Virus record (IMG/VR): IMGVR_UViG_3300009594_000001
Origin: a virus
Lineage: Duplodnaviria > Heunggongvirae > Uroviricota > Caudoviricetes
Length of the DNA stretch: 64,000 nt
Direction: 5' to 3' (one strand)
The notes under the pieces are model-generated. The model was given only the letters and a program-made list of their open reading frames with translations, searched no databases and was not told where the DNA came from. A program made the position numbers and the translations under genes. The number at the start of each line of letters is the position of its first letter. The first letter of the stretch is position 1. Shown piece by piece: positions 6,118 to 55,090 of this stretch.

Positions 6118-6543
6118 ATGAAGAAAGATGAAAGAGGAAAGGAGATGAAACATTGGTTTTTTAGCGACCCCCATTTCGGCCACGGCAACGGACGCATCTC
6201 TTTGTTGATGCCCTACTCGGTTGTCCAGAAAATCCGCTCTCAATACGGCAGGGATGGCAAGGTCATCCACAGGAAGGAACTGTGCAATGCAGAGGATATT
6301 CTCATCCAAATGCACCACGTTCGCAAACTTGCCGATCTGAGAAAACCGGGGCGAGGACCGAAGGAAGAGTGGCAGAAGATCATGGCGGCTCGTAAGCGAA
6401 AGATGCTGGCTGTGAGAAGTGCCATGTCAAAATCCACACCGGGAGATACGACGGACCTTCCTTGCATGGTCCACTGGAGAGCCGGGGGCAGTGAAAATTG
6501 CACGCCCGGTTCGGAGAGGGTAGCTGGAAAAGGTTCGTTGTAA
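6118..6543 (+). other. metallophosphoesterase N-terminal fragment (motif I DPHFGH) in a different frame from the rest of the domain
   Basis: FSDPHFGHGNG matches the calcineurin-like phosphoesterase motif I; the downstream ORF carries motifs II and III in another frame. Confidence 0.4.
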
Positions 6544-7034
6544 CACGGAACCTCGCTGGCTACCTACTCTACTGTCGTCGCACGAAGTACATGACGCCGA
6601 ATGAGATTCGGCTTCTAGATGAGGGTGCGAATTTCCATGTCAGTCGTGAGAGCGTCTGGCGTATGAATGATGCCATTATTGGTAACATCAACGCTTTGGT
6701 CCAGCCTGACGACGTTTTCTGGTGCTTGGGGGATTTCTGTTTTGTAGGAGGCAAGGATTACTACAGAGAGTCAGCCATCTATCGCAGTCGGATCAAATGT
6801 GCAACGATGCACATGGTCTGGGGAAACCACGATACGTCCAGCAAGATCGCCTCGTTGTTCAATACCAGTCATAAGATGGAAATGATTGCCATCAACCCGG
6901 AGAGCGGTCGTTACTACATCGATGAGGAGGTAATCAGGCCGTTCGGACTAGACGAGATCATTAAGATCATGCAGGCCAGACCGGGCTTCTGGATGGACTA
7001 CCACGGCAAACGAGGAAATCGTGACGAAGAGTGA
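6498..7034 (+). CDS. metallophosphoesterase domain protein (possibly disrupted)
   Basis: GDFCFVGG (GDxxDRG-like) and GNHD motifs. Motif I lies in the upstream ORF in another frame. Confidence 0.55.
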   Translation: MHARFGEGSWKRFVVTRNLAGYLLYCRRTKYMTPNEIRLLDEGANFHVSRESVWRMNDAIIGNINALVQPDDVFWCLGDFCFVGGKDYYRESAIYRSRIKCATMHMVWGNHDTSSKIASLFNTSHKMEMIAINPESGRYYIDEEVIRPFGLDEIIKIMQARPGFWMDYHGKRGNRDEE

Positions 7035-10356: not shown

Positions 10357-12282
10357 ATGTCCAAGAAGCTAGGTATGGGGAAGGGCCGTCATCACGAGGC
10401 CGTTACCCACGAGAAGGTCTACAGTGAGACTGTAGCCCACAAGCATGTTCCGGGCCGTGCGTACACCCACGACGACCCGACCGTGAAGCTCATCACCATG
10501 ATCGGTGGTGGGTTCTTCAACGAACCAAAGTATTACGACACCAACCGTCCGACTGTAGACTTCTACCGTGAACTGCGGGAGAAGGGCTGCATTTCGTCCG
10601 TCATCACGGACGCAATGGGTCTGTCCGAGCAGGCTCGTGAAGTCATTGAGACAGCACACAAGGTCGCTCAGGGTCCGAACCCGGAAGACCTACTCGTGAT
10701 CGCTGCCTGGGCACGAGACACCAAGAAGGGTCTCAAGCTGCGGTACACGCCGCAGATCATGCTCGCCCTGGCTGCGGCCAACGAGAAGACTAAGCCGTTC
10801 GTTCCTGTATACTCCACGGCTATCATCCAGCGTGCGGACGAAATCCGTAGTGTGTTCGCTGCGTTCCGTCATCTGTTCCACACGAAGGACACCGGCACTG
10901 GTCTGTACAAGGGCACGATCCCGCACTCTCTCCGTAAGGCTCTGGCTCTTGCCTTTGCCGAGGAGGGACTGTACGGCCTCATCAAGTACAACACCGACGA
11001 CCGCCCGACGTTCGGCGATGTACTGCTGATGCTTCGTGGCAGCGACATCGGGAAGTATCTGGAGAAGCGAATCGGCAAGAGCCGCCAGCACTGGCCGGTC
11101 AGCAAGTCCATGTTCGAGTACCTTGTCAACGGCAAGGTCGGCGAGGATGCTCCGAAGATGTTGAAGCTGCGTGAACAGTTCTTCAAGCTGAAGAAGGTCG
11201 AGGAAGTTACACCGAAACTCCTAGAGGGTGCCGGTTTGACCTGGGAAAACGTTATCTCTCATTTCGGCTCCACCAAAGAAGCCTGGGAGATGTGTATTCC
11301 GCTCATGGCGGAAATGGCCCTGGTCCGCAACCTCCGTAACTTCGAGAAGGTCAGTATCAGCAAGGATGCGTGGGATAAGGTACACGCCAAGTGTACTTCG
11401 ATCATGGACACCGAGCAGCTTCCGTTCCGCTTCTTCTCCGCTGAGAAGCAGGTTGGCAGCACGAATGCCAAGAGCGTCACGGACGCTATGCTGGACAACG
11501 CCTGCATGAACGTGCCGGACCTTCCGGGTGTGACTGTCATTTTCACCGACAACTCTGGCTCTGCTACCGGCTGTGCCGTTAGCGGTAAGAGCAAGATGCG
11601 TGTCGCTGACGCTGGCAACACCCTGGGTGCGATCATCGCCAAGCGGTTTGGCCGTAGGGCCATGATGGGTGTCTTCGGAGACTGCCTGATCTGGGTGCCG
11701 TTCAGCCCAAGCGACTCCTGCATGGCAATCAAGAAGTACATCGACCAGTGTGCCCAGAGCGGCGACCGTGGCAAGCTGAAGGCTCTTACCGTGATGAGCG
11801 GTAAGTACGATATCCTCACCGGGTCTAGCGGTCGCTACGGCGGCGGCGTCGGTGGTGGTACGGAGACGGGTCTGTGGTGCGGTATCCATGACCTTACCGA
11901 GAGGAAGGTCCATGTAGACCGTATCATCATCTGCTCCGACTTCTGCTGCTACACCAAGGGCGATGCTGTGAACTGTGGCCACGATATGACCCGTTGCTTC
12001 GGCGAGGGTGGTGACAAGGCCACGATTCAGAGCATGATCGAGAAGTACCGGAAGAAGGTCAACCCGAACTGCTGGGTCCACAGTATTGACCTACAGGGCT
12101 ATGGTCAGGCCCAGATCAAGTCGGGTTCCAAGAAGGCCCAGTTACTCAGCGGTTGGAGCGAGCAGGTGTTCACTCTGATCCGTGCAGTCGAACTCGGCGA
12201 CGAGCAGGTACAGCAGGTTCAGGGTGAGCCGGTCGAAGTTCCGACCATCGAATTGCTACGCAAGATGTACAAGCGGTCGTAG
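10357..12282 (+). CDS. rsr: Ro60-like protein (TROVE helical domain plus vWA domain)
   Basis: N-terminal helical region with Ro60-like motifs IGGGFFNEPKYY and QIMLALAAA. C-terminal vWA MIDAS motif VIFTDNSGSATG with downstream Thr and Asp (IIICSDF). 641 aa. Confidence 0.55.
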   Translation: MSKKLGMGKGRHHEAVTHEKVYSETVAHKHVPGRAYTHDDPTVKLITMIGGGFFNEPKYYDTNRPTVDFYRELREKGCISSVITDAMGLSEQAREVIETAHKVAQGPNPEDLLVIAAWARDTKKGLKLRYTPQIMLALAAANEKTKPFVPVYSTAIIQRADEIRSVFAAFRHLFHTKDTGTGLYKGTIPHSLRKALALAFAEEGLYGLIKYNTDDRPTFGDVLLMLRGSDIGKYLEKRIGKSRQHWPVSKSMFEYLVNGKVGEDAPKMLKLREQFFKLKKVEEVTPKLLEGAGLTWENVISHFGSTKEAWEMCIPLMAEMALVRNLRNFEKVSISKDAWDKVHAKCTSIMDTEQLPFRFFSAEKQVGSTNAKSVTDAMLDNACMNVPDLPGVTVIFTDNSGSATGCAVSGKSKMRVADAGNTLGAIIAKRFGRRAMMGVFGDCLIWVPFSPSDSCMAIKKYIDQCAQSGDRGKLKALTVMSGKYDILTGSSGRYGGGVGGGTETGLWCGIHDLTERKVHVDRIIICSDFCCYTKGDAVNCGHDMTRCFGEGGDKATIQSMIEKYRKKVNPNCWVHSIDLQGYGQAQIKSGSKKAQLLSGWSEQVFTLIRAVELGDEQVQQVQGEPVEVPTIELLRKMYKRS

Positions 12283-13469: not shown

Positions 13470-13763
13470 AACTGTCGTTGTGGGAAGGAATGAGGATCAG
13501 GCCACATGTGATTTGGCGATCCTCAGCCTGATCCAATTTCTCCCACAACGCTGGCTGGTAGCTTAGGGTAAAGCACTTCAGGAAGCCGCAAGGTGGACTG
13601 ATGGGATGTCAGGTTCAATTTCCTGGCCCAGCCGCTAGCGGGAACGGGTCGAGATTCTATAGTTACAAAGAAACGGCGACTAAATAGAAGATCAGCAATT
13701 TCGAGTTTTCACACTAAAATGGCGTCCCATTGACTCGTTCCCGTTTCCTAGAACAAGGAGTGC

Positions 13764-21696: not shown

Positions 21697-22113
21697 ATTT
21701 AGGTTTTTCGTCTAGGAGATTTGCCCCTCGTATAGAAAAAAGGCTCACTTGGTACGAGACTTGCTCAATTTTCAATTGGTGTTTGTTTACCCTGTTTCGA
21801 TGACGCCAGATAGAGGAGAACTCTAATGGCAACTATGGTTGCGAATCCCAGGAGGCGAAGTGAGGCACTTAGAACCGTCAAGGAGAAGCTGGCGGTTCTA
21901 CAAGGCATGTCAGACGAGATCGGTTCCAAGATGGTCATCGAGACCGCCATCGATGCCGTCGAGTCCACTATGGAAGCCGCCCTCTGCTGATGGGCAGTCG
22001 GCGTAACACGCATGGGAAATGAACTGTACAGCCGTCCCTGTGCAGACCATTCCTCGACCAGTCTGGCAACTTGACAACCAACCGGGACAAAGTGACGTGA
22101 TCGAAAAAAGGGG

Positions 22114-22142
22114 TTGACTCGGTTGGCCTCTCTTGCTAGAAT
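22114..22142 (+). promoter_or_regulatory. sigma-70-like promoter TTGACT-17-TAGAAT
   Basis: Upstream of the first tRNA cluster. Confidence 0.5.
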
Positions 22143-22165
22143 GTTTCTCGTCAGTTGATTGCTAG

Positions 22166-22258
22166 GCAGGTAGCTTAGTAGGCCGCAAGGTAGCTTGGAG
22201 TAGAGCGTCAGCCTAATAAGTTGAAGGTTGCTGGTGCGAATCCAGTCCTGCCCACTTA
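22166..22258 (+). ncRNA. tRNA-like element (93 nt, type and anticodon unresolved)
   Basis: Acceptor-like ggcaggt/cctgcc pairing, T-arm ctgg-tgcgaat-ccag, long D region; no clean anticodon arm. Confidence 0.35.
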
Positions 22259-22441
22259 AACGAGAACTGCCGTGGCCGCAAGGCGGAAAGGCAACCCTGG
22301 GAGCGAGTCTCCCGCTAACATCCAACCGGACTCATAAGGGGTAGCGGGGAATCCGGTTCACGGCGGAAAAATTCCGAAAAATGTCCTTTTTTGGGATTGC
22401 TCGTCTATATATTGGACAGGCAGAAATGCCGACATGACGTG

Positions 22442-22512
22442 GGGTGGTGTAATTGGTCAACATACGAGGCTCATAACCTCGTGATTCCAGGTTCGAGTCC
22501 TGGCCCCGCAAC
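22442..22512 (+). tRNA. tRNA-Met(CAT)
   Basis: AC arm cgagg-ctCATaa-cctcg; T arm ccagg-ttcgagt-cctgg; acceptor ccccgca. Confidence 0.7.
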
Positions 22513-22789
22513 TCAAGGACGCTAACAGCATTTTCCTACTACGGCAAAGAGATGGCGTCCGGGGGACAAGCGGTTAAGTCGCTAGTCTCATAAACAACAC
22601 CGGGCCGTGAGGCCCACAATGGAGGCAAGAAGAATACAATGGCTGTCCTGATTCAGAGACATGGGAAACAATGGTGCCGCTGCCATAAGCAGTGGAATAA
22701 CCAGATTACGTACCTCATGTCCTGATCGAGCAGCCAAAAGCCGGTTCAGGGCGTGAGTCCTGGGCCGGTGTCATAGGGAACTTGTAGAA

Positions 22790-22830
22790 CCCCTCGATAC
22801 CACTCAGCGGTATCGAGGGGTTTCTTTTTT
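22790..22830 (+). terminator. rho-independent terminator
   Basis: cccctcgatacc-actcagc-ggtatcgagggg followed by tttcttttttc. Confidence 0.7.
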
Positions 22831-23177
22831 CTACGAGGTATCCCTATGAGGATAGTGTCGGAGTTCAGGGACTACTACGATTGCATCCAGGCAATGGGCC
22901 AAGATCGGTCGTTAGTCTATGTGAAAATATCGAAGGAAGTGGATTGTAGTTACCGAGGCGTGAATTCGCCGGTTTACCCCTTCCCGACGTTCGGAGGTTA
23001 CTATAGGTTTCCTTACGATGACTTTTCGATCCCTACATGGCGTTCCAAGAGATTTCGATGTATCTGGGAGGATTAGCAGTTCCTCAGAAACCTATGCCGA
23101 AAATCTCCGACGAAGTGATGGCAGAGATCAAGGGATTCGATAAATGGAGCTTCCGAAAAGAACCCAGCAGGAAATGA

Positions 23178-23248
23178 TGTGGCGTCAGATAATGGTAATC
23201 GGCCTGCCTGTTAAACAGGAGATGTTGGTTCGATCCCAGCCGCCACAG
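23178..23248 (+). tRNA. tRNA-Asn(GTT)
   Basis: Acceptor tgtggcg/cgccaca; AC loop ctGTTaa; T arm gttgg-ttcgatc-ccagc. Confidence 0.6.
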
Positions 23249-23254
23249 CTTTAT

Positions 23255-23339
23255 TCCTGGGTAGCCTAAAGGTAAGGCAGCAGTCTGTTAAACTGCCGTG
23301 GCGAAAGTCCGAATGTTGGTTCGAGTCCAACCCCAGGAG
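23255..23339 (+). tRNA. type-II-like tRNA with anticodon GTT (Tyr-like scaffold, long variable arm)
   Basis: Acceptor tcctggg/cccagga; D gcct/aggc; AC gcagt-ctGTTaa-actgc; 18-nt variable region; T gttgg-ttcgagt-ccaac. Confidence 0.5.
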
Positions 23340-23356
23340 CTTGATAGGTTAGTTCT

Positions 23357-23385
23357 TTGACAATTAGGATCGCCAAAACTATAGT
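23357..23385 (+). promoter_or_regulatory. sigma-70-like promoter TTGACA-17-TATAGT
   Basis: Consensus -35 with 17-nt spacer, inside the tRNA cluster. Confidence 0.5.
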
Positions 23386-23410
23386 CGCCGCAAGGCAGTG
23401 GTGACTATAT

Positions 23411-23492
23411 GGGGTCGTGGCAGAATGGTTATGCACCCGGCTTTTAACCGGAGCGAGAAATCGCAATGAGGGTTCGATTCCTTCTGGCCCCA
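23411..23492 (+). tRNA. tRNA-Lys(TTT) with a 15-nt variable arm
   Basis: Acceptor ggggtcg/tggcccc; AC ccgg-ctTTTaa-ccgg; variable hairpin gcga-gaaa-tcgc; T gaggg-ttcgatt-ccttc. Confidence 0.5.
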
Positions 23493-23496
23493 CTTT

Positions 23497-23568
23497 CGGC
23501 TCATGTTGTAGTGGTCTGCGAACCGCTCTGATAAGGCGGGAGTCCTGGGCCGATTCCAGGTGAGCCGA
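23497..23568 (+). tRNA. tRNA-Ile(GAT), atypical T-loop
   Basis: Acceptor cggctca/tgagccg; AC ccgct-ctGATaa-ggcgg; T cctgg-gccgatt-ccagg (no TTC); weak D arm. Confidence 0.45.
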
Positions 23569-23576
23569 CTCCGAAT

Positions 23577-23649
23577 GGCCTGGTCGTTCAATGGTTAGGA
23601 CGCCGCTCTGATAAGGCGGTAATGAAGGTTCGACTCCTTCCTGGGCTAC
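23577..23649 (+). tRNA. tRNA-Ile(GAT)
   Basis: Same AC arm ccgct-ctGATaa-ggcgg; T gaagg-ttcgact-ccttc; acceptor contains G-U pairs. Confidence 0.5.
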
Positions 23650-23654
23650 TAGAT

Positions 23655-23730
23655 GGGCCTGTGTTGTAATGGCAGCGAGCCGGTCGGGCTTATGAGAGAA
23701 TGTTGGAAGAAGCGAAAAAGTGTGTCCTGC
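23655..23730 (+). ncRNA. tRNA-like fragment (D-arm gtgttgtaatggcagc, no T-arm)
   Basis: 5' half resembles the neighbouring tRNAs, but the 3' half lacks a T-loop. Confidence 0.25.
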
Positions 23731-23856
23731 TTTGTAACTGATGTCACACAGAGGTCACGCACGGCGTAGCGACACTGAACATTGGCGACACATGCCATCC
23801 GAACTAGTGTAGGGGAGTTGTGTGGCCTCTGGGGAGAGGCCCAGACCTTGAGATAT

Positions 23857-23928
23857 GGTGGTCGTGGTGTTGGTTTCGCACGCTTGGCTGTGAACCAAGA
23901 GGAATGGGTTCGATCCCCGTCGATCACC
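23857..23928 (+). tRNA. tRNA-His(GTG)
   Basis: G-1 present; acceptor gtggtcg/cgatcac; AC cttgg-ctGTGaa-ccaag; T atggg-ttcgatc-cccgt. Confidence 0.7.
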
Positions 23929-23932
23929 CTTG

Positions 23933-24005
23933 TAGTCGATGTGGTGTAATTGGCAGCATGGCCGTTGAGCGGAATTAGGTGCAGGTTCGAGTCCTGTCGC
24001 CCGGT
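23933..24005 (+). ncRNA. tRNA-like element B (D-arm and T-arm but no anticodon arm)
   Basis: gtggtgtaattggcagc D-arm; T gcagg-ttcgagt-cctgt; 3' acceptor cgcccgg has no 5' partner upstream. Confidence 0.35.
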
Positions 24006-24019
24006 CTAGACAACCAAAA

Positions 24020-24092
24020 CCGGGTGTGATGTAATGGCAGCACGGCCCCAGCGAAGGGGAAACAGGTCTGGGTTTGAGTCTCAGCGATCGAA
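24020..24092 (+). ncRNA. tRNA-like element C (D-arm and T-arm but no canonical anticodon arm)
   Basis: 5' ccgggtg pairs with the 3' cgcccgg of element B. D-arm gtgatgtaatggcagc; T ctggg-tttgagt-ctcag. Confidence 0.35.
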
Positions 24093-24221
24093 GATACGTG
24101 AGATAGATTGTGGCGTCGTCTAACACCCCGCCAGAATAGTCGAACAACTATGGGGTAAAAAGGATATCGGGGGCCAGATTAGCCCGGAGATGCAGGTGAA
24201 ACTCCTGTCCGTCACAGCCAT

Positions 24222-24294
24222 TGAGGGGTCGTCTAATTGGTAGGACGCTCGGCTTTGAACCGGGAAAATGAAGGTTCGACTCCTTCCCCCTCAG
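24222..24294 (+). tRNA. tRNA-Gln(TTG)
   Basis: Acceptor tgagggg/cccctca; AC ctcgg-ctTTGaa-ccggg; T gaagg-ttcgact-ccttc. Confidence 0.65.
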
Positions 24295-24317
24295 CTAGAC
24301 AGAATGGTGCAGACACC

Positions 24318-24388
24318 AGTTCCTTCGACCAAGTAGGTCAACATCCTGTTAAGATGTCCATTGTGGGTGTCAAATCCCACAGGAACAA
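24318..24388 (+). tRNA. tRNA-Asn(GTT)-like, atypical 8-nt T-loop
   Basis: AC acatc-ctGTTaa-gatgt; D gacc/ggtc; T gtggg-tgtcaaat-cccac; acceptor agttcct/aggaaca with one mismatch. Confidence 0.4.
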
Positions 24389-24418
24389 CCTGATGTCGAA
24401 TATCTCTTCTGTCTTTAC

Positions 24419-24491
24419 GGCCCCAAGGTGTTAGTGGCAGCATTCCACGCTCTTAACGTGCGGGGTCCGGGTTCAAGTCCCGGTGGGGCCA
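24419..24491 (+). tRNA. tRNA-Lys(CTT)
   Basis: Acceptor ggcccca/tggggcc; AC cacg-ctCTTaa-cgtg; T ccggg-ttcaagt-cccgg. Confidence 0.65.
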
Positions 24492-24582
24492 CTTTGCTCT
24501 AGAAAAACCTAGAGCCATCATCTATACTACTAGCACTACGACCAGTGGCTCGACCTGTTCCGCAAGAAGGAATGGATCGAGA

Positions 24583-25044
24583 ATGAATGCAACGAAACTG
24601 CTGTCCATAGGAAAGACAGCCGAAAGATTGGGAGTGCATGTTGATACTCTCAGGGAATGGGACAAAGACGGCAAACTGACCCCGGTGAAGACCCCCGGCA
24701 ACCATCGCCGCTACCGCATCGAAGACATCGAAGCGTTCTGCGGCAACATGGTTGAGAAGAAGGATGACGCAAAGGCAGTCAGAGTCGCCCAAGAAAAACC
24801 TCAAAATAAATTCAAGGATGTTTTGCATTTTGCCGATGATTACATTATAATACTTTGTCTGACTGTGGATACTCTACGATTTTGGCGGGACAAAGACGTA
24901 TTTGACCTGATTGGCACAATCGGAGGACACAACATTGATGAAGTTTTAGGTGTAATTAGTGAAAAGTCAAGTAAGGTGGACAGAGGACGAGGTAAATCTT
25001 CTCAAAGAACACGGAGCGACAAAACTCCTGCACGAACTGGTTGA
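24583..25044 (+). CDS. tnpA: IS607-family TnpA N-terminal MerR-like HTH segment (reading frame terminates before the catalytic domain)
   Basis: LLSIGKTAERLGVHVDTLREWDKDGKLTPVKTPGNHRRYRIEDIEAF matches the IS607 TnpA N-terminus from memory; it is followed by the intein block A-like CLTVDTLRF. Confidence 0.5.
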   Translation: MNATKLLSIGKTAERLGVHVDTLREWDKDGKLTPVKTPGNHRRYRIEDIEAFCGNMVEKKDDAKAVRVAQEKPQNKFKDVLHFADDYIIILCLTVDTLRFWRDKDVFDLIGTIGGHNIDEVLGVISEKSSKVDRGRGKSSQRTRSDKTPARTG

Positions 25045-25924
25045 GCTACTACCGAGACATACGGCAATGGGTATCTCGATCAAGAGAAAGCGGCTCGGCA
25101 TAGAACTGCCAGATGAATACCTGTCAAGGCAAGGAGCATACGGCAGGTCATTTGTAAATAATGACAACTTGTGTAAGACGGATCACAGCCTCACGCTAAA
25201 CGATCTTGATGATACGACCAAACAGGTTCTTCTTGGCAGCGTCTTAGGCGACGGCAGTATCAAGAAGAATGGAAGCGGTGGGAAGATGAGGGGCAAGTGG
25301 AGTCAAAGGAACTTCATCTTCTACGACATGCACAGAAGTCCACAATTTGACTACACGGACTGGAAGGCATCCAAACTCCAAACATTCTTAGCCAAGTCAA
25401 GCCGCAACGATGAGAAGAACAGGTCAGAGACTTGGACGGTATCGCATCCGATCTTCACCATGTTGCGTGATAAGTTTTATCCGGCGATGACGAAGTGTAA
25501 CAAGTGCATGATCCCCGCCGACATCGTTGAGCAGATGGATGAGTTGGCGTTGTTGGTGTGGTACTTTGATGACGGCTACATCGGTGTGCGTCCTGATGGA
25601 TTTGACACCAAAGGTCATCACAAACGACCGCAACCAAGAATTGCGGCAAAAGGTTGGAACTACGAAGACCTGTGCAGAGCCGCCGAGATACTGAACAAGA
25701 ACTTGGGGTTGCATCTGTACGTTCTTACATTCAAGCACAGGGACGGTGTTGGTAAAGAAGTCAAGATACCAGCAAAAGACAGGGATTACTTGTTTCAGCT
25801 TTGGCAGCAGTTGGCGAAACAACACGGCGTACCTGAGTGTATGATGTACAAACTGAACCTGCACGAATGGAAAGATGTACTTGTGTATAAGCAGCCACGA
25901 ACAGAAGCAGAAGGGCGACCTTGA
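24959..25924 (+). CDS. LAGLIDADG homing endonuclease (double-motif)
   Basis: Two dodecapeptide motifs, LLGSVLGDGSI and LLVWYFDDGYIG. Lies between the HTH and catalytic parts of tnpA, in a third frame. Confidence 0.7.
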   Translation: MKSQVRWTEDEVNLLKEHGATKLLHELVELLPRHTAMGISIKRKRLGIELPDEYLSRQGAYGRSFVNNDNLCKTDHSLTLNDLDDTTKQVLLGSVLGDGSIKKNGSGGKMRGKWSQRNFIFYDMHRSPQFDYTDWKASKLQTFLAKSSRNDEKNRSETWTVSHPIFTMLRDKFYPAMTKCNKCMIPADIVEQMDELALLVWYFDDGYIGVRPDGFDTKGHHKRPQPRIAAKGWNYEDLCRAAEILNKNLGLHLYVLTFKHRDGVGKEVKIPAKDRDYLFQLWQQLAKQHGVPECMMYKLNLHEWKDVLVYKQPRTEAEGRP

Positions 25925-26999
25925 GCGACAAAATGGGCGGGTTCTCGCCTACTGCGTCAAGAAACAGTACCAAGTAGTAAAATCCTACGAGGAAGTCGGC
26001 TCTGGCATGTGCGACACCCGACCAAAACTTCATCAAATCTTCAAGTTGGTTGAAGAGAAGCAGGTGGATAAGGTCATCGTAGAACACAAGGACCGGCTGA
26101 CCCGGTTCAACTTCAACTTTCTGGCAGCGTTCTTCGCCAGTCATGGTGTTGAGGTTGAATGGACAGAGGAAGTGCTTGGGAACAAGCGGTACGAGGACGA
26201 GTTAGTGGAAGACATGCTCACGCTCATGTCCTCGTTCTCAAACAAAATCTACGGCAAACGATCCGCAGAGAACCGCAAGAAGAAAAAGTTAGAGAAGTTG
26301 GCGGCAAAGGAGCAAGGTGAAGGTACAGAGGGGCTTCAAGACGGAGATCAGACCAAGCGACAAGCAAAAGACGCTGCTGCTCAAGAATGCAGGAGCGGCA
26401 CGCTGGGCGTACAACTACGGTCTGAGCCAGAAGAAGATCGCTCTGGAAGCCAAGACGAAGATACCCAACGCCATCGAACTGCACCGTCGCTTGAACGAGT
26501 TGAAGAAGACGGAAATACCGTGGGCTTACGAGTGCAGCAAGTGCAGTTTTCAAGAAGCACTCAGAAACCTCGACAGGGCTTTCAGCAACTTCTGGACAGC
26601 ACGGAAAACCAAGAGACGCATGGGCTTCCCGAAGTTCAAGAGCAAGAAGAACGGCATCGGCGGCTTCCGGCTCACAGGGACGATCATCGTGTCCAGCGAC
26701 CGCATCCAGTTGCCCCGTCTCGGCACGATCCGGCTCAAGGAGAAGAACTACCTGCCGACCGACGCCAAGATACTCAACGCCACGGTAACGGAGAGGGCTG
26801 GCAGGTGGTTCGTGAGCGTACTGGTGGAGATGGAACAGCCGGAATACACCGGCATCAAGGACAAGAAGGACGTGGTGGGCGTGGACTTGGGCATCAAGAC
26901 GCTGGCGACCGTGAGCGACGGCACGGTGTACGAGAACCCGAAACCACTCAAGACCCGATTACGCAAACTACGGCGGCTACAACGAGCAGTCGCCCGTAA
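25875..26999 (+). CDS. tnpA: IS607-family serine recombinase catalytic domain (TnpA C-terminal part; 3' end uncertain)
   Basis: YLCISSHEQKQKGDLERQ (cf. YARVSSxxQ...DLxRQ) and IVEHKDRLTRFNFNFL...GVEVEW. The frame stays open to 26999, overlapping tnpB out of frame; the true stop is probably near 26330. Confidence 0.55.
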   Translation: MYLCISSHEQKQKGDLERQNGRVLAYCVKKQYQVVKSYEEVGSGMCDTRPKLHQIFKLVEEKQVDKVIVEHKDRLTRFNFNFLAAFFASHGVEVEWTEEVLGNKRYEDELVEDMLTLMSSFSNKIYGKRSAENRKKKKLEKLAAKEQGEGTEGLQDGDQTKRQAKDAAAQECRSGTLGVQLRSEPEEDRSGSQDEDTQRHRTAPSLERVEEDGNTVGLRVQQVQFSRSTQKPRQGFQQLLDSTENQETHGLPEVQEQEERHRRLPAHRDDHRVQRPHPVAPSRHDPAQGEELPADRRQDTQRHGNGEGWQVVRERTGGDGTAGIHRHQGQEGRGGRGLGHQDAGDRERRHGVREPETTQDPITQTTAATTSSRP

Positions 27000-27456
27000 G
27001 GTCAAGGGCAGTAGAAACCGCAGGAAGGCGGCAGACCGTGTGGCTCGTTTGTACCTGAAAGTGAGCAACATCCGTAAGGACACCTTGCACAAGATGACGA
27101 CATGCTTGACGAAAACCAAGTCGGCGGTCGGTATCGAGGACTTGAACGTGTCGGGGATGCTCAGGAACAGGTGCTTGGCACGGTCTATCGCTGATCTCGG
27201 TCTTGGTGAATGGCGGCGGCAGATGACCTATAAGGGCGTCTGGTACAAGTGCCACATCGCCGTGGCGGACAGGTTCTTCGCCTCCAGCAAGACGTGTAGC
27301 GTCTGCGGGGAGATCAACGAGAACCTGACGCTGGCTGACCGAGAGTGGGTCTGTGAAGGTTGTGGGACGCACCATGACCGGGACTTCAACGCAAGCAGTA
27401 ATTTGGAATACGTTGCCGCCAGTTCGACGGAAACGATAAACGCCTGTGTAGTGTGA
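26317..27456 (+). CDS. tnpB: TnpB (IS605 OrfB family RuvC-like nuclease with zinc finger)
   Basis: 379 aa with the OrfB N-terminus (PSDKQKTLLLKNAGAARWAYNYGL), RuvC motifs (VVGVDLGIKTLAT; GIEDLNVSGM) and C-terminal zinc finger CSVCGE...CEGCG. Confidence 0.85.
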   Translation: MKVQRGFKTEIRPSDKQKTLLLKNAGAARWAYNYGLSQKKIALEAKTKIPNAIELHRRLNELKKTEIPWAYECSKCSFQEALRNLDRAFSNFWTARKTKRRMGFPKFKSKKNGIGGFRLTGTIIVSSDRIQLPRLGTIRLKEKNYLPTDAKILNATVTERAGRWFVSVLVEMEQPEYTGIKDKKDVVGVDLGIKTLATVSDGTVYENPKPLKTRLRKLRRLQRAVARKVKGSRNRRKAADRVARLYLKVSNIRKDTLHKMTTCLTKTKSAVGIEDLNVSGMLRNRCLARSIADLGLGEWRRQMTYKGVWYKCHIAVADRFFASSKTCSVCGEINENLTLADREWVCEGCGTHHDRDFNASSNLEYVAASSTETINACVV

Positions 27457-28608: not shown

Positions 28609-28723
28609 TTGGGACATAGTGTAAGCGAGAAGCTGTCGTTGTGTATGATTCTAGATGAAAGCAACGGCTGGTAGCACGAGTCTATACGAAGGGCTTAGTT
28701 TGGGTTCGAGTCCCAATGTCCCA
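28609..28723 (+). ncRNA. 115-nt tRNA-like element with ~40-nt insertion in the D region
   Basis: Perfect acceptor tgggaca/tgtccca and T-arm ttggg-ttcgagt-cccaa. The D-loop motif ggtagcac is displaced by an extra segment; no clear anticodon arm. Confidence 0.35.
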
Positions 28724-43095: not shown

Positions 43096-43166
43096 GCGTC
43101 CTTGGTCTAGTGGTATGATGCTAGCTTACCATGCTGGAGGCACCGGTTCGATTCTGGTAGGACGCT
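43096..43166 (+). tRNA. tRNA with apparent anticodon ACC (identity uncertain)
   Basis: Acceptor gcgtcct/aggacgc; AC ctagc-ttACCat-gctgg; T accgg-ttcgatt-ctggt; weak D-arm. Confidence 0.4.
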
Positions 43167-43172
43167 CTCGCC

Positions 43173-46698: not shown

Positions 46699-46808
46699 CT
46701 GCCAGCAAGGTGCAGGGTAGAGTTACTTCACAGGTTCAATTCTTGTTTTCTCCGCAAGGGGAAAGCTAAAGGTAGCTTCACTCTTCTCGAATATGTCTGC
46801 TGGCAAAT

Positions 46809-48673: not shown

Positions 48674-48775
48674 GCGGGATGGTGCAGGATACGGTTCCTT
48701 CGCCAAATGGTATGGCACTAGCTGTCAAAGCTGGAGTTGTGGGTTCAATTCCCACAGGTTCAAATCCCGTATCTG
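48674..48775 (+). ncRNA. ~100-nt tRNA-like region with two T-loop-like motifs
   Basis: 5' gcgggat pairs with 3' atcccgt 100 nt downstream; contains gtggg-ttcaatt-cccac and ggttcaaatcc; no clean cloverleaf. Confidence 0.25.
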
Positions 48776-49518: not shown

Positions 49519-49634
49519 GCAGATCGTTGCCGTAATGAGAAGTAGGTATCGAATCCCCAAGTCGCAAGTCAGCCGAGCAACTGGCGTAAGCGATGCAAGG
49601 TAGGTCTAGCGTGAGTTCGAGTCTCACCGATCTG
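49519..49634 (+). ncRNA. 116-nt tRNA-like element (perfect acceptor gcagatc/gatctgc, two T-arm-like motifs, partial Thr-like anticodon arm)
   Basis: ccgtaatgag duplicates the preceding tRNA-Thr anticodon arm; T gtgag-ttcgagt-ctcac at the 3' end. Confidence 0.3.
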
Positions 49635-52693: not shown

Positions 52694-52825
52694 TTGTGGT
52701 CCGAATTGCGACCCTCCACCGACTCCCACGCCTTCTCCTAGCAAATGCTATTCTAGAGTGAAAGTTGGCGGGGTCTCTAGAATCAAAGTATCTAATAGTA
52801 GGAGTCTCAAGATTTGTACATAAGG

Positions 52826-52906
52826 GGCCTTGGTCTAACGGTAAGGCGTCGTGTTAAAGTCACAGTGCCGCACGAAGATGTCGGTTCGATTCCGGCAGGT
52901 TCCATA
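52826..52906 (+). ncRNA. tRNA-like element without a resolvable anticodon arm
   Basis: Acceptor ggggcct/aggttcc (two G-U); D-arm gtctaacggtaag; T gtcgg-ttcgatt-ccggc. Confidence 0.3.
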
Positions 52907-52981: not shown

Positions 52982-55090
52982 ATGTCAGTACCAGAGATGT
53001 TGGAAAGACGGGTGTGGCCCATCGAGAAAGCCCTGCAACGCATCCTTGTTGGGCAGAGGAACGTCATCCGCCGTGTGACTATGGCGTTATTCGCTGTCGG
53101 ACAGCGGGACTTCTATCCAGATGGTACACGATTTTTAGGAACAGGCCACGTTCTATGCGAAGGCGGTGTAGGAACAGGAAAATGTCTTGGTAAAGGCACC
53201 CCCGTCTTGATGTTCGACGGAACTATAATTCCCGTTGAATCCGTTAAGACTGGAGACCTGTTGATGGGACCAGATTCTCTGCCCAGGAAGGTTATTGCTC
53301 TCGGACACGGTTTTGGAGAGCTATATCGGGTGATACCAAAAAAGGGCGATTCGTATGTTGTCAATGACGAGCATATCCTGTCATTTAAGATGACTAGTCG
53401 TGGTCGAAATAGGCAGGGCAATTTTCCACGTTCTGGCGACAATGTTCCTGGCATGATTTATAACATGTCAGTCAAAGAATACTTGGGAAGGTCAGAGCGA
53501 TTCAAGAGTCATGCCAAGGGATATAGAGTTGGCATCGAGTTTGATGAGCGAATTGTGCCACTGGACCCGTATTTTTTTGGCGTGTGGTTGGGAGATGGGA
53601 TCAGTCGCACCGCACAGGTTTGCAATACGGATAACGAAATTATTGCGTACATTCGTAAGATGGCAAACAAGTACAGGCTGCGGTTCAACACTTACACAGC
53701 AAGCGGGAAAGCTCCGATTCACTCGTTGTGGGGGAAAAAATTCCATCCTAATGCGATATTGAGTGCTTTACGTGAAATGAACGTATTGCAAAACAAACAT
53801 GTTCCACAAATATACAAAGCAAATTCACGACGAGTGAGATTGCAAATTTTGGCCGGACTGATGGACACAGATGGCAGTCTGTCGGCTGGTTGCTATGACT
53901 TCGTAAACAAGTCAAAACAACTTGCCGATGATGTGGTTTATTTGGCGAGGTCTCTAGGATTCGCCGCTTATGTCAAACCATGCACCAAGGTTTGCAAAAA
54001 CAACGGTAAAAAGGGTCGATATTACCGAGTATCGATTTCTGGAAATTTATCGGAAGTTCCGGTTCGCATTGCCAAGAAAAAGGCTTCTCTTCGTCGGCAG
54101 AAGAAGAATGTGTTGGTGACTGGAATCAAAGTAGAACCAGAGGGCTATGGAGAATACTTTGGTTTCGAGATTGAGGGACCAGACAGGCTGTTTCTCCTGG
54201 GAGATTTCACGGTCACACACAATACCGTTCTCTGTAAAGCACTTTCTAGGTTGCTGGCTGGCAACTCCAAACGAGTATCGGGAATGCCCGACGCACTTGC
54301 CAGCGATATTACTGGTTGCGAGATCATCTTGCTGACCGGCGATACCAAGACGGTCCAGGGGCCGCTATTCTGCAACGTTATGCTGGCTGACGAGATCAAC
54401 CGTTTCCCGCCCAAAGCCCAAAATGCGTTCATCGAAGCACTGGCTGAAGGCTGTGTCACCATCGCAAATGAAACTATTCGTTTGAAGCAGCCTTTCTTCT
54501 GCCTCGCTACACAGAACCCGACTGAGCAAAAAGGCACGAGTCGTCTACAAGAGGCTCTGTCAGACCGGTTTATGTTCAAACTCGTCATGCGTGAGACTAC
54601 AGAGCAGGAGAAGATTGATATCGCAAAGCGGACACACCACTTCGATGTCACGAACCTGAATCCTGTAATTACGACAGACGAAGTATACGAAGCTAGAGAG
54701 TATTTCTTCAACAATACTCACGTCAGCGATGAGGTACGTCGCTACGCTGCTCGCTTGCTTCGTGCAATCAACCATCCAGCGGAATACAAACTTCTTGAGA
54801 AGGAACGGGCCTTGCTTGCGGGCGATAACATCTTCAAGCAAAAGCCAGCGGTCAACGACCGTGCCATGCTGCATATGGAAGGTGCGGCGATGATGGAGGC
54901 GGTTATGAGTGGGAGGGACTACGTGATCCCCGCCGACGTTGCTGCTGTTGCGGCAGATGCCCTCCGTGCCCGTCTTCTCCTGTCTGAGTCTAGTTTGCAC
55001 CTTCTGGCGGAACTACACCCAGGCAAAACCGAAACCGAGTTGGTGGACTATTTCATAGACGAAACTCTGTCTAGGGTGCGACACACTTGA
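52982..55090 (+). CDS. MoxR-like AAA+ ATPase interrupted by an intein (extein about 355 aa)
   Basis: Walker A GGVGTGK|...|T is split by the intein; the post-intein extein carries Walker B LADEINR and sensor motifs typical of MoxR. Confidence 0.8.
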   Translation: MSVPEMLERRVWPIEKALQRILVGQRNVIRRVTMALFAVGQRDFYPDGTRFLGTGHVLCEGGVGTGKCLGKGTPVLMFDGTIIPVESVKTGDLLMGPDSLPRKVIALGHGFGELYRVIPKKGDSYVVNDEHILSFKMTSRGRNRQGNFPRSGDNVPGMIYNMSVKEYLGRSERFKSHAKGYRVGIEFDERIVPLDPYFFGVWLGDGISRTAQVCNTDNEIIAYIRKMANKYRLRFNTYTASGKAPIHSLWGKKFHPNAILSALREMNVLQNKHVPQIYKANSRRVRLQILAGLMDTDGSLSAGCYDFVNKSKQLADDVVYLARSLGFAAYVKPCTKVCKNNGKKGRYYRVSISGNLSEVPVRIAKKKASLRRQKKNVLVTGIKVEPEGYGEYFGFEIEGPDRLFLLGDFTVTHNTVLCKALSRLLAGNSKRVSGMPDALASDITGCEIILLTGDTKTVQGPLFCNVMLADEINRFPPKAQNAFIEALAEGCVTIANETIRLKQPFFCLATQNPTEQKGTSRLQEALSDRFMFKLVMRETTEQEKIDIAKRTHHFDVTNLNPVITTDEVYEAREYFFNNTHVSDEVRRYAARLLRAINHPAEYKLLEKERALLAGDNIFKQKPAVNDRAMLHMEGAAMMEAVMSGRDYVIPADVAAVAADALRARLLLSESSLHLLAELHPGKTETELVDYFIDETLSRVRHT
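53183..54223 (+). mobile_element. intein with LAGLIDADG homing endonuclease domain (347 aa)
   Basis: Begins with Cys in block A (CLGKGTPVLMFDG); LAGLIDADG motifs FFGVWLGDGIS and ILAGLMDTDGSLS; ends VTHN, followed by the Thr that completes GKT. Confidence 0.8.

What the first reader, a model, noticed from the sequence alone, without database searches (positions are those of the whole stretch)
23933..24092. Two adjacent tRNA-like RNAs with D- and T-arms but no anticodon arm; the 3' acceptor strand of the first pairs with the 5' strand of the second (YrlA-like or permuted/split tRNA)
Elements B and C carry the same D-arm (gtgtaatggcagc) and bona fide T-arms as neighbouring tRNAs, but neither forms a 5-bp/7-nt anticodon stem-loop. 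B's 3' strand cgcccgg finds no partner upstream, yet pairs 6 WC + 1 GU with C's 5' strand ccgggtg located 16 nt downstream. Bacterial Y RNAs of the YrlA class are described as tRNA-like modules lacking a functional anticodon arm. With the Ro60-like gene 12 kb upstream, these are candidate Ro60 ligands. Alternatively this is a circularly permuted or split tRNA gene.
Basis: inference. Interest (0 to 1): 0.6.

Follow-up and report, generated by a model that had tools for sequence, protein, structure and literature searches.

The report
Interlocked pair of anticodon-less tRNA-like RNAs
Inside a huge phage's tRNA gene array sit two tandem tRNA-derived elements that cannot decode and whose end strands pair with each other rather than within each element; they are probably one structured tRNA-mimic RNA, but they are not the phage's Ro60-binding Y RNA, better candidates for which lie elsewhere in the window.

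Summary
Elements B (23935-24005) and C (24020-24092) have good D- and T-arms. In place of anticodon arms they have 3-4 bp hairpins with 5-6 nt loops. Default ARAGORN and Rfam call neither one. B's 3' strand pairs 7/7 (6 WC + 1 GU) with C's 5' strand across a 15-nt spacer. Their own acceptor stems pair only 4/7 and 5/7, against 7/7 in 65 of 69 real tRNAs of this array and its relative.

The only relative found (81% identical, one sequence type in three assemblies) keeps the unit. Thirteen stem substitutions leave at most one broken pair (P about 0.004), so the arms look selected. In that relative B's 5' strand also pairs 7/7 with C's 3' strand. The window has only 6 bp plus a bulge there, and RNAalifold does not recover this outer helix.

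My reading is a tandem-duplicated tRNA turned into one non-decoding, cross-paired tRNA mimic. Its T-arm / acceptor hairpin / D-arm core has YrlA topology. It fails the YrlA membership tests I could run: no Y-stem, 11.7 kb from the TROVE gene, and model scores no better than ordinary tandem tRNAs. A permuted or split tRNA is rejected.

Separately, a covarying Y-RNA-like stem family next to TROVE genes of related phages hits the window at 13480-13547, 24299-24413 and 46702-46804.

The parts
23935..23941 (+). B 5' strand GTCGATG (proposed outer helix I, 5' side)
   Evidence: Invariant between the window and L004. Pairs 4/7 with B's own 3' strand. Pairs 7/7 with C's 3' strand in L004, and 6 bp plus a bulged A in the window. 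RNAalifold instead pairs it locally with AUUGGC of B's D-loop.
23944..23959 (+). B D-arm (GTGT / AATTGGCA / GCAT)
   Evidence: Two G-U pairs in the window are Watson-Crick in L004.
23962..23972 (+). B mini hairpin replacing the anticodon arm (CCG-TTGAG-CGG; in L004 CTGC-GTAA-GCAG, a GNRA tetraloop)
   Evidence: Compensatory C-G -> U-A change. Too short to present an anticodon. It sits where YrlA has its 'V' hairpin.
23981..23997 (+). B T-arm GCAGG-TTCGAGT-CCTGT
   Evidence: Strict T-arm motif. Recovered by RNAalifold.
23998..24004 (+). B 3' strand CGCCCGG (inner helix II, 5' side), followed by U73 and the array-typical 'CU' trailer
   Evidence: 7/7 with 24020-24026. Invariant in both genomes. 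Trailer seen.
24005..24019 (+). 15-nt spacer / loop of helix II (TCTAGACAACCAAAA)
   Evidence: 5 of 15 positions differ from L004. Somewhat longer than the tightest tRNA-tRNA spacers of this array.
24020..24026 (+). C 5' strand CCGGGTG (inner helix II, 3' side)
   Evidence: Helix II appears in the L004 MFE and in the window centroid structure.
24029..24043 (+). C D-arm (ATGT / AATGGCA / GCAC)
   Evidence: Compensatory G-C -> C-G change versus L004. The A x C mismatch in the window is G-C in L004.
24046..24059 (+). C mini hairpin CCCC-AGCGAA-GGGG (6-nt loop; AGCAAA in L004)
   Evidence: The forced 'anticodon' differs between the relatives: GCG (Arg) versus GCA (Cys).
24068..24084 (+). C T-arm CTGGG-TTTGAGT-CTCAG
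   Evidence: Compensatory C-G -> U-A change versus L004. The L004 version is identical to the window's T-arm at 28700.
24085..24092 (+). C 3' strand CGATCGA plus A (proposed outer helix I, 3' side; possibly a deletion product)
   Evidence: 5/7 with C's own 5' strand. Lacks the 'CU' trailer that L004's C has.
24299..24413 (+). Neighbouring Y-RNA-like stem element (not part of B-C; relevant as an alternative Ro60-ligand candidate)
   Evidence: Model R1: 27.2 bits, E 5e-5. The orthologous stretch L004 5783-5897 also hits R1.
46702..46804 (+). Y-RNA-like stem enclosing T-arm 46730, acceptor hairpin TTTCTCC-GCAA-GGGGAAA and a D-like hairpin (YrlA-type candidate)
   Evidence: Model R1: 35.9 bits, E 2e-7. 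Anatomy read from the sequences.
13480..13547 (+). Weak Y-like hairpin 1.2 kb downstream of the TROVE gene on the same strand
   Evidence: Model R1: 22 bits, E 0.0014.
10357..12282 (+). TROVE (Ro60-like) gene
   Evidence: Pfam TROVE, E 9e-19. PDB entries 9l5y and 9kop, deposited as 'TROVE domain-containing protein', E 7e-13.

Best explanation
B and C are tandem duplicates of one tRNA gene that now form a single non-decoding tRNA-mimic RNA of about 158 nt, co-transcribed with the phage's tRNA array.

Shown:
- Both keep D- and T-arms under selection for pairing.
- Both have short hairpins where the anticodon arm should be.
- B's 3' strand and C's 5' strand form a perfect, invariant 7-bp helix. 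Neither element can close a normal acceptor stem of its own.

Inferred:
- The inner helix stacks on B's T-arm and leads into C's D-arm. That gives the T / acceptor-hairpin / D topology of a YrlA tRNA-like domain.
- The outer strands (B 5', C 3') close the unit with a second acceptor-like helix stacked on C's T-arm.
- tRNA-processing enzymes act at the tRNA-typical positions: RNase P at the two 5' ends, and 3' trimming at the N73-CU trailer. Each T-arm plus 3' strand would then serve as a guide for the other element's 5' strand.

The product would be either the 158-nt RNA or two ~72-nt RNAs held together by about 14 bp.

Speculative: it acts as a decoy or platform for tRNA-recognising factors (modification or processing enzymes, host tRNA-targeting nucleases, or the phage's Ro60 system). 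It does not act in decoding.
For: - Anatomy, and failure of the tRNA callers.
- Own acceptor pairing 4/7 and 5/7, against 7/7 in 65 of 69 real tRNAs. Cross-pairing B3':C5' is 7/7. B5':C3' is 7/7 in L004 and 6/7 plus a bulge in the window. Sources.
- The nested model is far more stable than two separate cloverleaves: window -38.0 vs -13.8 kcal/mol, L004 -54.7 vs -24.7.
- The L004 MFE and RNAalifold recover helix II, both T-arms, both mini hairpins and C's D-arm without constraints.
- Window versus L004: 13 substitutions in 52 arm-stem positions leave 1 (or 0) broken pair. Three changes are fully compensatory. A neutral simulation expects about 6 broken pairs, P = 0.004 (or 0.0005).
- Helix II (14 nt) and B's 5' strand (7 nt) have no change, while unpaired positions differ at 17 of 79.
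- The loop 'anticodon' is not conserved (GCG vs GCA). B's loop is a GNRA tetraloop in L004.
- B in both genomes, and C in L004, carry the N73-'CU' trailer seen after about 85% of the array's tRNAs.
- A T-arm followed directly by an acceptor-type hairpin is otherwise found almost only in TROVE-adjacent elements that share this layout.
Against: - Only two distinct sequences exist: the window, and L004 = L005 = L104. Helices I and II therefore show no covariation.
- The shuffle control is weak (56/500).
- RNAalifold does not recover helix I. It pairs B's 5' strand with B's D-loop instead.
- The window's MFE is a different fold at -49.7 kcal/mol with z = +0.6.
- The window's copy is the weaker one: more G-U pairs, an A x C mismatch, T-loop UUUGAGU, a bulged outer helix, and no CU trailer after C.
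- The window's C 3' end aligns better with L004 sequence lying beyond a ~230-nt segment, so it may be a deletion scar.
- Adjacent spacer DNA downstream is more conserved (about 89-92%) than B-C (81%). Conservation alone is therefore not evidence.
- L004's C T-arm is identical to another T-arm of the array, so gene conversion between paralogous arms could mimic compensation.
- There are no expression data.
Confidence: 0.5

Rival explanations
1. B and C are dead relics. They are two decaying tandem copies of one tRNA gene. The B3':C5' complementarity is simply inherited, because two copies of one acceptor stem are mutually complementary. The arms stay intact through recent divergence and gene conversion from functional paralogues in the array. 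There is no function.
For: - Adjacent duplicate isoacceptors in this array also cross-pair at 6-7/7.
- Ordinary tandem junctions score as high as or higher than B-C with the T-AS-D model.
- The array shows clear decay elsewhere. Element A at 23655-23685 is a truncated 5' fragment of a tRNA-Ile(tat) that is intact in L004. There are also several aberrant tRNA-likes.
- L004's C T-arm is identical to T-arm 28700.
- The window's copy is degraded.
- Neighbouring spacer DNA is more conserved than B-C.
Against: - 13 stem substitutions with at most 1 broken pair, P = 0.004-0.0005.
- The compensatory change in B's mini hairpin and L004's C D-arm have no close paralogue (<=2 mismatches) in the window or L004.
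- Helix II and B's 5' strand are invariant while loops change.
- B5' and C3' have diverged from the presumed ancestral acceptor sequence yet still match each other 7/7 in L004. Drift does not predict that.
Confidence: 0.3
2. B-C is a YrlA-class Y RNA, that is, a ligand of the phage's Ro60 (TROVE) protein.
For: - The V-like hairpin / T-arm / acceptor hairpin / D-arm order matches the YrlA tRNA-like domain (PMC4201824).
- It also matches the modules I found directly upstream of TROVE genes in L130, L131, L133 and L134.
- The 7-bp acceptor hairpin recalls M. smegmatis YrlA, which has a 7-bp 'acceptor stem' and is cleaved by RNase P.
- A TROVE gene lies on the same strand.
- B's 5' strand GUCGAUG is one mismatch from GNCGAA(N)G.
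Against: - 11.65 kb from TROVE, against <=4 kb.
- No hit of the Y-stem model R1. That model does hit 3 other window sites and all the TROVE-adjacent RNAs of L126, L128 and L134.
- R2 score is 21.7 bits, against 67-73 for true modules.
- The acceptor-hairpin loop is 15 nt, against 4-7 nt.
- Extra D-arm at the 5' side and extra mini hairpin plus T-arm at the 3' side.
- No Rfam Y_RNA or YrlA hit. This is weak evidence, because Rfam also missed the clear modules in L130-L134.
Confidence: 0.1
3. B and C are two independent but unorthodox decoding tRNAs, for example C as tRNA-Arg(GCG) or tRNA-Cys(GCA).
For: - ARAGORN at default settings calls the L004 homologue of C a tRNA-Cys(gca).
- At 80% threshold it calls window C a tRNA-Arg(gcg).
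Against: - A33 in place of the universal U33.
- A 3-bp anticodon stem with 2 mismatches, or a 6-nt loop.
- Acceptor stems of 5/7 and 4/7.
- The anticodon differs between 81%-identical relatives.
- Canonical tRNA-Cys(GCA) genes exist in both genomes.
- B has only a 3-4 bp hairpin with a 4-5 nt loop.
- Rfam tRNA scores are below threshold.
Confidence: 0.05
4. A circularly permuted or split tRNA gene whose halves are joined after transcription into one decoding tRNA.
For: The order (T-arm, 3' acceptor strand) - spacer - (5' acceptor strand, D-arm) is the order found in permuted tRNA genes.
Against: - No anticodon stem can be formed between the sequence upstream of B's variable region (GAGCGG) and the sequence downstream of C's D-arm (GGCCCC). 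Each side forms its own hairpin.
- No bulge-helix-bulge motif. Bacteria and their phages are not known to carry the splicing endonuclease this needs (general knowledge).
- B has its own D-arm and C has its own T-arm.
Confidence: 0.02

Closest known systems
YrlA-class bacterial and phage Y RNAs (tRNA-like domain; Chen et al. 2014 RNA 20:1715, PMC4201824; Wang et al. 2018, bioRxiv 10.1101/312249)
   Same: - The order of elements is the same: optional V hairpin, T-arm, acceptor-type stem closed by a loop, D-arm.
- Neither presents a decoding anticodon loop.
- It is encoded by a phage that has a Ro60/TROVE gene.
- The closed stem is 7 bp, as in M. smegmatis YrlA.
   Different: - No Ro60-binding stem or motif, and not adjacent to the TROVE gene.
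- The closing loop is 15 nt and equals a tRNA-tRNA spacer.
- The module is flanked by a further D-arm (B) and a further hairpin plus T-arm (C), so it is two nearly complete tRNA-like bodies rather than one.
- It scores no better than tandem tRNAs with a model of true modules.
D. radiodurans Yrn1 tRNA-like region (as described in PMC4201824)
   Same: Taken singly, C has the order D-arm, anticodon-like stem with a 6-nt loop, T-arm. That is the arrangement described for Yrn1, including its 6-nt 'anticodon loop'.
   Different: - Yrn1's ends form the Ro60-binding helix.
- C's ends pair with B instead.
- No Ro-binding motif is present.
Tandem (dimeric) tRNA genes and tRNA pseudogenes in phage tRNA arrays
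   Same: - Same location, strand, spacing and trailer motif.
- B and C are paralogues.
- Duplicate isoacceptors in this array are also cross-complementary.
   Different: - Real tandem tRNAs keep 7/7 stems of their own and 5-bp/7-nt anticodon arms.
- B and C have lost both, yet they keep arm pairing through 13 substitutions.
Bipartite RNase P substrates / external guide sequences (Forster and Altman 1990; from my own knowledge, not checked here)
   Same: A T-arm plus 3' acceptor strand on one RNA segment pairs with a 5' strand on another segment. This makes an acceptor/T minihelix that RNase P can cleave. It is the geometry proposed for helix II (B guides C) and helix I (C guides B).
   Different: - External guide sequences are experimental constructs.
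- A natural reciprocal pair has not, to my knowledge, been described.
- Cleavage here is untested.

Membership tests
Canonical tRNA | Cloverleaf scoring above the Rfam RF00005 gathering score (29 bits), or called by ARAGORN at default settings | tested here: not met
   B scores 19.2 bits (E 0.41) and C gets no hit. ARAGORN default calls neither in the window. It does call L004's C a tRNA-Cys with the anticodon at an odd position, 31.
Canonical tRNA | 7-bp acceptor stem formed by the molecule's own 5' and 3' ends | tested here: not met
   B 4/7 and C 5/7 in both genomes, against 7/7 in 65 of 69 array tRNAs.
Canonical tRNA | 5-bp anticodon stem with a 7-nt loop and U33 | tested here: not met
   B has 3-4 bp with a 3-5 nt loop (a GNRA tetraloop in L004). 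C has 4 bp with a 6-nt loop, or 3 bp with a 7-nt loop and A33.
YrlA-class Y RNA | tRNA-like domain in the order T stem-loop, acceptor-type stem-loop, D stem-loop (optional V hairpin upstream) | tested here: met
   B mini hairpin, B T-arm, helix II (7 bp) and C D-arm occur in that order. The definition is taken from PMC4201824.
YrlA-class Y RNA | GNCGAAN0-1G motif near the 5' end (presumed Ro60 contact) | tested here: not met
   B's 5' strand GUCGAUG has U where the second A should be. C's loop AGCGAAG lacks the first G and is AGCAAAG in L004.
YrlA-class Y RNA | Encoded within about 4 kb of the Ro60 gene on the same strand | tested here: not met
   Same strand, but 11.65 kb downstream of TROVE, which ends at 12282.
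YrlA-class Y RNA | Scores as a member with a covariance model of true T-AS-D modules | tested here: inconclusive
   Model R2, built from 7 TROVE-adjacent modules, gives B-C 21.7 bits (L004 29.2). The two L134 modules, which are in the training set, score 67-73. Ordinary or tRNA-like tandem junctions score 29-38. The model does not separate the classes.
YrlA-class Y RNA | Bound by Ro60/Rsr | not testable with these tools
   Needs RIP or pull-down.
Phage TROVE-adjacent Y-like stem family (model R1, defined here) | Closing stem with 5' GGAAGRUG...GGNUACUUCA and 3' GAUUAUUUCUCC, bulged on the 3' strand | tested here: not met
   No R1 hit overlaps 23935-24092 at E<=1. R1 does hit 46702-46804, 24299-24413 and 13480-13547 in the window, and TROVE-adjacent RNAs in L126, L128 and L134.
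Circularly permuted / split tRNA gene | An anticodon stem-loop reconstituted from the two gene parts, with a bulge-helix-bulge processing motif | tested here: not met
   The flanks are not complementary, and each side forms its own hairpin.
tmRNA | tRNA-like domain plus a tag reading frame | tested here: not met
   ARAGORN, which also searches for tmRNA, and Rfam report none.

The most novel reading that the evidence does not exclude
B and C form an obligate, reciprocally 'strand-swapped' tRNA-like heterodimer. Each element's T-arm and 3' strand make an acceptor helix with the other element's 5' strand. RNase P and the 3'-end machinery then cut the pair into two ~72-nt RNAs that can exist only as a duplex with two acceptor-like ends. 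This would be a natural pair of mutual external guide sequences. It could also be an evolutionary intermediate showing how the permuted tRNA-like domain of YrlA Y RNAs arises from tandem tRNA genes. It might serve as an effector-binding tRNA mimic in the phage's Ro60 / RNA-surveillance or anti-defence system.
Probability: 0.15. Interest if true: 0.75.

Novelty: new variant of a known kind. Interest (0 to 1): 0.5.

Why it matters
If real, this is a natural case of tRNA genes turned into a non-decoding structural RNA by swapping acceptor strands between neighbours. It also suggests how the circularly permuted tRNA-like domain of bacterial Y RNAs could evolve from tandem tRNAs.

There is a practical lesson for annotating huge-phage tRNA arrays. 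Part of what looks like degenerate tRNA is structured and conserved, and it should be counted neither as decoding capacity nor dismissed as junk.

The by-product may matter more. A covarying Y-RNA-like stem family lies next to TROVE genes of several uncultivated huge phages and is scattered through this phage's tRNA arrays. That gives concrete candidate Ro60 ligands to test.

Tried and rejected
- BLAST of 22000-25000 against GenBank phages: no match.
- Exact or degenerate DNA patterns of B, C and the junction in IMG/VR: only unrelated ordinary tRNAs, or nothing.
- Glycosyltransferase-based locus search in IMG/VR: nothing.
- The single metagenome scan used too loose a junction pattern (my mistake).
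- Scan of the GTDB genome collection: nothing.
- A third lineage exists (P0243, L136), but its contig ends inside the glycosyltransferase gene, so the array side is missing.
- Rfam with relaxed thresholds around B-C and around the TROVE gene: no Y_RNA or YrlA hit. Rfam also missed clear T-AS-D modules in L130-L134, so its silence says little.
- The T-AS-D covariance model R2 did not separate B-C from ordinary tandem tRNA junctions.
- Single-sequence MFE folding of the window copy does not give the cloverleaf-type fold, and its z-score is not significant.
- The small ORFs at window 22846-23076 and L004 6091-6321 are unrelated to each other and have no Pfam hit.
- I first took L004's 7/7 outer helix at face value. 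One search showed that the window's C 3' end aligns beyond a 230-nt segment of L004, so I lowered the weight given to helix I.
Full report
**Context**

The window is part of a 463,644-bp metagenomic contig (ENA ERZ27245623 k141_14709). It has the marks of a huge phage:
- ARAGORN finds 43 tRNA genes, all on the + strand. Rfam adds four more weak tRNA hits.
- It encodes an NAD-dependent DNA ligase, a TROVE/Ro60-like protein (10357-12282), an intein-bearing AAA ATPase and glycosyltransferases.
- A transposon-like gene cluster (MerR-type HTH, LAGLIDADG endonuclease, serine-recombinase and TnpB genes; I read it as IS607-like) lies at 24583-27456, inside the tRNA array.
- TROVE homologues of 55-70% identity are common in metagenomes. 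Three of the few that carry a name come from planctomycete MAGs.

**The observation**

- B (23935-24005) has a D-arm, a T-arm (GCAGG-UUCGAGU-CCUGU) and a 3' strand CGCCCGG. Only a 3-bp hairpin (CCG-UUGAG-CGG) stands where the anticodon arm should be.
- C (24020-24092) has a 5' strand CCGGGUG, a D-arm, a 4-bp hairpin with a 6-nt loop (CCCC-AGCGAA-GGGG) and a T-arm (CUGGG-UUUGAGU-CUCAG).
- B's 3' strand pairs with C's 5' strand by 6 Watson-Crick pairs and one G-U, across 15 nt.

Neither default ARAGORN nor Rfam at gathering threshold calls a tRNA here. With relaxed thresholds B reaches 19.2 bits (threshold 29) and C gets nothing. ARAGORN at 80% threshold forces C into a 'tRNA-Arg(gcg)' with A33, three anticodon-stem pairs and two acceptor mismatches.

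The T-arm motif is highly specific: 44 hits on the + strand and none on the - strand. Eight of the 44 lie outside called tRNAs, B and C among them.

**Is the cross-pairing unusual?**

- In the 69 tRNAs that ARAGORN calls in the window and its relative, the own acceptor stem has 7/7 pairs in 65, 6/7 in 3 and 5/7 in 1.
- B has 4/7 and C has 5/7.
- Between unrelated tRNAs, a 5' strand and a 3' strand pair 7/7 in 0.9% of combinations.
- Adjacent duplicate isoacceptors (Gly-Gly, Glu-Glu, Val-Val, Thr-Thr) also cross-pair 6-7/7, but they keep perfect stems of their own.
- B-C is the only neighbour pair in which cross-pairing is high and own pairing is lost.

**Relatives**

A glycosyltransferase 2.2 kb upstream has one close relative (78% identity). 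It sits on contigs L004 (JGI 3300019458) and L005 (ENA ERZ27251176), which carry the same tRNA array.
- B-C aligns to L004 6508-6348 at 81% identity.
- L005 and L104 are identical to L004 over this stretch, so there are only two distinct sequences.
- All other searches failed: IMG/VR patterns, GenBank phages, the GTDB genome collection, and one metagenome scan that I made too loose.
- A third lineage exists, but its contig stops short of the array.

**What the comparison shows**

In the six arms (26 pairs) the two sequences differ at 13 stem positions.
- Three changes are fully compensatory: B mini hairpin C-G to U-A, C D-stem G-C to C-G, and C T-stem C-G to U-A.
- Six are G-U to Watson-Crick changes.
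- One is an A x C mismatch in the window that is G-C in L004.
- A simulation that places 13 substitutions at random, with the observed transition bias, expects about six broken pairs. One or none occurs with P = 0.004 or 0.0005.

Other points from the comparison:
- Unpaired positions differ at 17 of 79. Helix II (14 nt) and B's 5' strand (7 nt) do not differ at all.
- In L004, B's hairpin is CUGC-GUAA-GCAG, a GNRA tetraloop, which cannot be an anticodon loop.
- C's forced 'anticodon' is GCG in the window and GCA in L004.

So these are not decoding tRNAs, and their arms look maintained.

Three caveats apply:
- With two sequences the shuffle control is weak (56/500).
- The DNA just downstream is more conserved (89-92%) than B-C.
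- L004's C T-arm is identical to another T-arm of the array, so gene conversion may account for part of the 'compensation'.

**The two long-range helices**

Helix II (B3':C5') is 7/7 in both genomes.
- It is recovered by the L004 MFE, by the window centroid and by RNAalifold.

Helix I (B5' GUCGAUG with C3') is less secure.
- It is 7/7 in L004 (CGUCGGC). In the window it is 6 bp with a bulged A and an end mismatch.
- Models with both helices are far more stable than two separate cloverleaves: -38.0 vs -13.8 kcal/mol for the window and -54.7 vs -24.7 for L004.
- RNAalifold prefers a local invariant hairpin for B's 5' strand.
- The window's own MFE is a different fold with an unremarkable z-score.
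- L004 carries a ~230-nt segment with a 76-codon ORF right after C. The window's C 3' end and trailer align better with the L004 sequence beyond that segment.
- The window's C also lacks the 'CU' that follows the discriminator base in about 85% of the array's tRNAs. B in both genomes and L004's C have it.
- The window's C 3' end may therefore be a deletion scar, and the window copy may be the more degraded of the two.

**Origin**

B and C share the D-arm, the 'UG' linker and the ...AGGU end of the variable region. B3' and C5' are two halves of one acceptor stem. A tandem duplication explains all of this.
- Relative to that presumed ancestral stem, B5' and L004's C3' differ at four pair positions yet still match each other.
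- This suggests the outer strands co-evolved.
- A single recombination that put a duplicated interior into another tRNA gene could give the same picture.

**Comparison with Y RNAs**

Chen et al. 2014 define YrlA by four features:
- a 5' GNCGAAN0-1G motif;
- a tRNA-like domain in the order (V) - T - acceptor-type stem-loop - D;
- location within 4 kb of Ro60;
- same strand as Ro60.

They also warn that tandem tRNAs (T of the first, D of the second) give false positives.

B-C meets the order criterion. B's mini hairpin even sits where the V hairpin would be. The other sequence criteria fail, as the following tests show.

- *Related phages.* I fetched loci of phages with related TROVE genes. Directly downstream of TROVE, L126/L127 and L128/L129 carry 4 tandem ~70-nt hairpins each. 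They have a conserved, bulged lower stem (5' GGAAGRUG, 3' UUAUUUCUCC), a GGNUACUUCA motif and a strongly covarying upper stem: 12 of 19 pairs show double changes.
- *Model R1.* A covariance model of these hairpins (R1) also hits four RNAs just upstream of TROVE in an independent IMG/VR contig, L134. One of them encloses a T-arm / acceptor hairpin / D-arm module.
- *Other IMG/VR loci.* L130, L131 and L133 carry the same kind of T - AS - D module by eye, but R1 does not hit them at E <= 0.01.
- *Window hits.* R1 hits 46702-46804 (35.9 bits; it encloses T-arm 46730, the hairpin UUUCUCC-GCAA-GGGGAAA and a D-like hairpin), 24299-24413 (27.2 bits; 207 nt downstream of C) and 13480-13547 (22 bits; 1.2 kb downstream of TROVE).
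- *B-C.* R1 does not hit B-C.
- *Model R2.* A second model, of true T-AS-D modules, gives B-C 21.7 bits. Its own L134 training modules score 67-73, and the best ordinary or tRNA-like tandem junctions score 29-38.

So the Ro60-ligand idea is better served by the R1-type RNAs. B-C shares only the topology.

**Verdict**

It is wrong, or at least unsupported, on membership: B-C is not a YrlA by the tests available, and not a permuted or split tRNA.

My best explanation, at about 0.5 confidence, is a conserved cross-paired double tRNA mimic that is made and probably processed together with the tRNA array. The main rival, at about 0.3, is a pair of decaying duplicate genes whose complementarity is inherited. 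The function is unknown. A decoy or platform for tRNA-recognising factors is my best guess, and it is speculation.

Noticed in passing
L126 5965-6429, L128 11996-13336, L134 2542-3495; window 46702-46804, 24299-24413, 13480-13547; L004 8673-8746, 3919-3987, 5783-5897 (minus strand): A family of Y-RNA-like hairpins lies directly next to TROVE genes in three independent huge-phage lineages and is scattered in the tRNA arrays of the window and L004. It has a conserved bulged lower stem (5' GGAAGRUG, 3' UUAUUUCUCC), a GGNUACUUCA motif and a covarying upper stem (12 of 19 pairs). Rfam finds nothing there at gathering threshold. These are the best Ro60-ligand candidates.
   Followed up: partly
L130 3190-3470, L131 7580-7860, L133 1360-1640, L134 2650-3210: YrlA-type modules (V hairpin, T-arm, 6-7 bp acceptor hairpin with a 4-7 nt loop, D-arm UAGCUCAACGGCAGAGC) lie just upstream of TROVE genes on the same strand in IMG/VR viral contigs. 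Rfam at gathering threshold calls nothing there.
   Followed up: partly
window 28610-28723 and 49520-49634: Two long (~107-115 nt) tRNA-like elements with perfect 7/7 acceptor stems and good T-arms, missed by ARAGORN and Rfam. The first reads as a tRNA-Arg(ACG) with a ~50-nt insertion in the D-loop.
   Followed up: no
In the window the rest of that gene, plus four further tRNAs (Trp x2, His, Asn), is replaced by ~160 nt of unrelated sequence. This is a real truncated tRNA gene.
   Followed up: partly
window 24148-24215: A third degenerate tRNA-derived element between C and tRNA-Gln. It has a T-like arm GCAGG-UGAAACU-CCUGU (same stem as B's T-arm) and a 5-bp hairpin with an 11-nt loop. The surrounding aligned block (24083-24493) is about 89% identical to L004, and the hairpin shows one compensatory change.
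   Followed up: partly
window, all tRNA 3' ends (e.g. 23649-23651, 24295-24297): About 85% of the tRNAs in this array and in L004 have 'CU' right after the discriminator base, often CUA or CUU. No CCA is encoded. This may be a shared 3'-processing signal.
   Followed up: no
window 24583-27456: A transposon-like gene cluster interrupts the tRNA array: a MerR-type HTH ORF, a LAGLIDADG endonuclease ORF lying between the HTH and the resolvase domain, a serine-recombinase ORF and a TnpB (OrfB_IS605 / Cas12f-like TNB) ORF. The only L004 match to window 24469-24529 lies beside another tRNA-Lys, so the element looks absent from the relative; I did not search L004 with the element itself.
   Followed up: no
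L004 6115-6347 (minus strand): A ~230-nt segment with a 76-codon ORF (no Pfam hit) sits right after C's 3' strand in the relative and is absent from the window. It is either an insertion in L004 or a deletion in the window, bounded by a short TCG repeat.
   Followed up: partly
window 48693-48763, 52824-52904, 43096-43167: Unusual anticodons: a 71-nt 'tRNA-SeC(tca)', possibly a UGA suppressor, plus tRNA-Phe(aaa) and tRNA-Gly(acc) with A34. Several tRNAs are 81-90 nt long.
   Followed up: no
window 6477-6572 and 52982-55090: An Rfam group II intron catalytic-domain hit (56.3 bits) lies upstream of the NAD-ligase gene. A MoxR-type AAA ATPase gene carries a Hint / LAGLIDADG intein.
   Followed up: no
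L126 6165-6277 and L128 12225-12297: Small tRNA-like elements with non-standard T-loops (GUGCAAC, GUGUAAA) are interleaved with the Y-like hairpins next to TROVE. The two in L126 have no D-arm. L128 12100-12150 is a tRNA-like element with an 8-bp 'anticodon' stem and a 6-nt loop.
   Followed up: no
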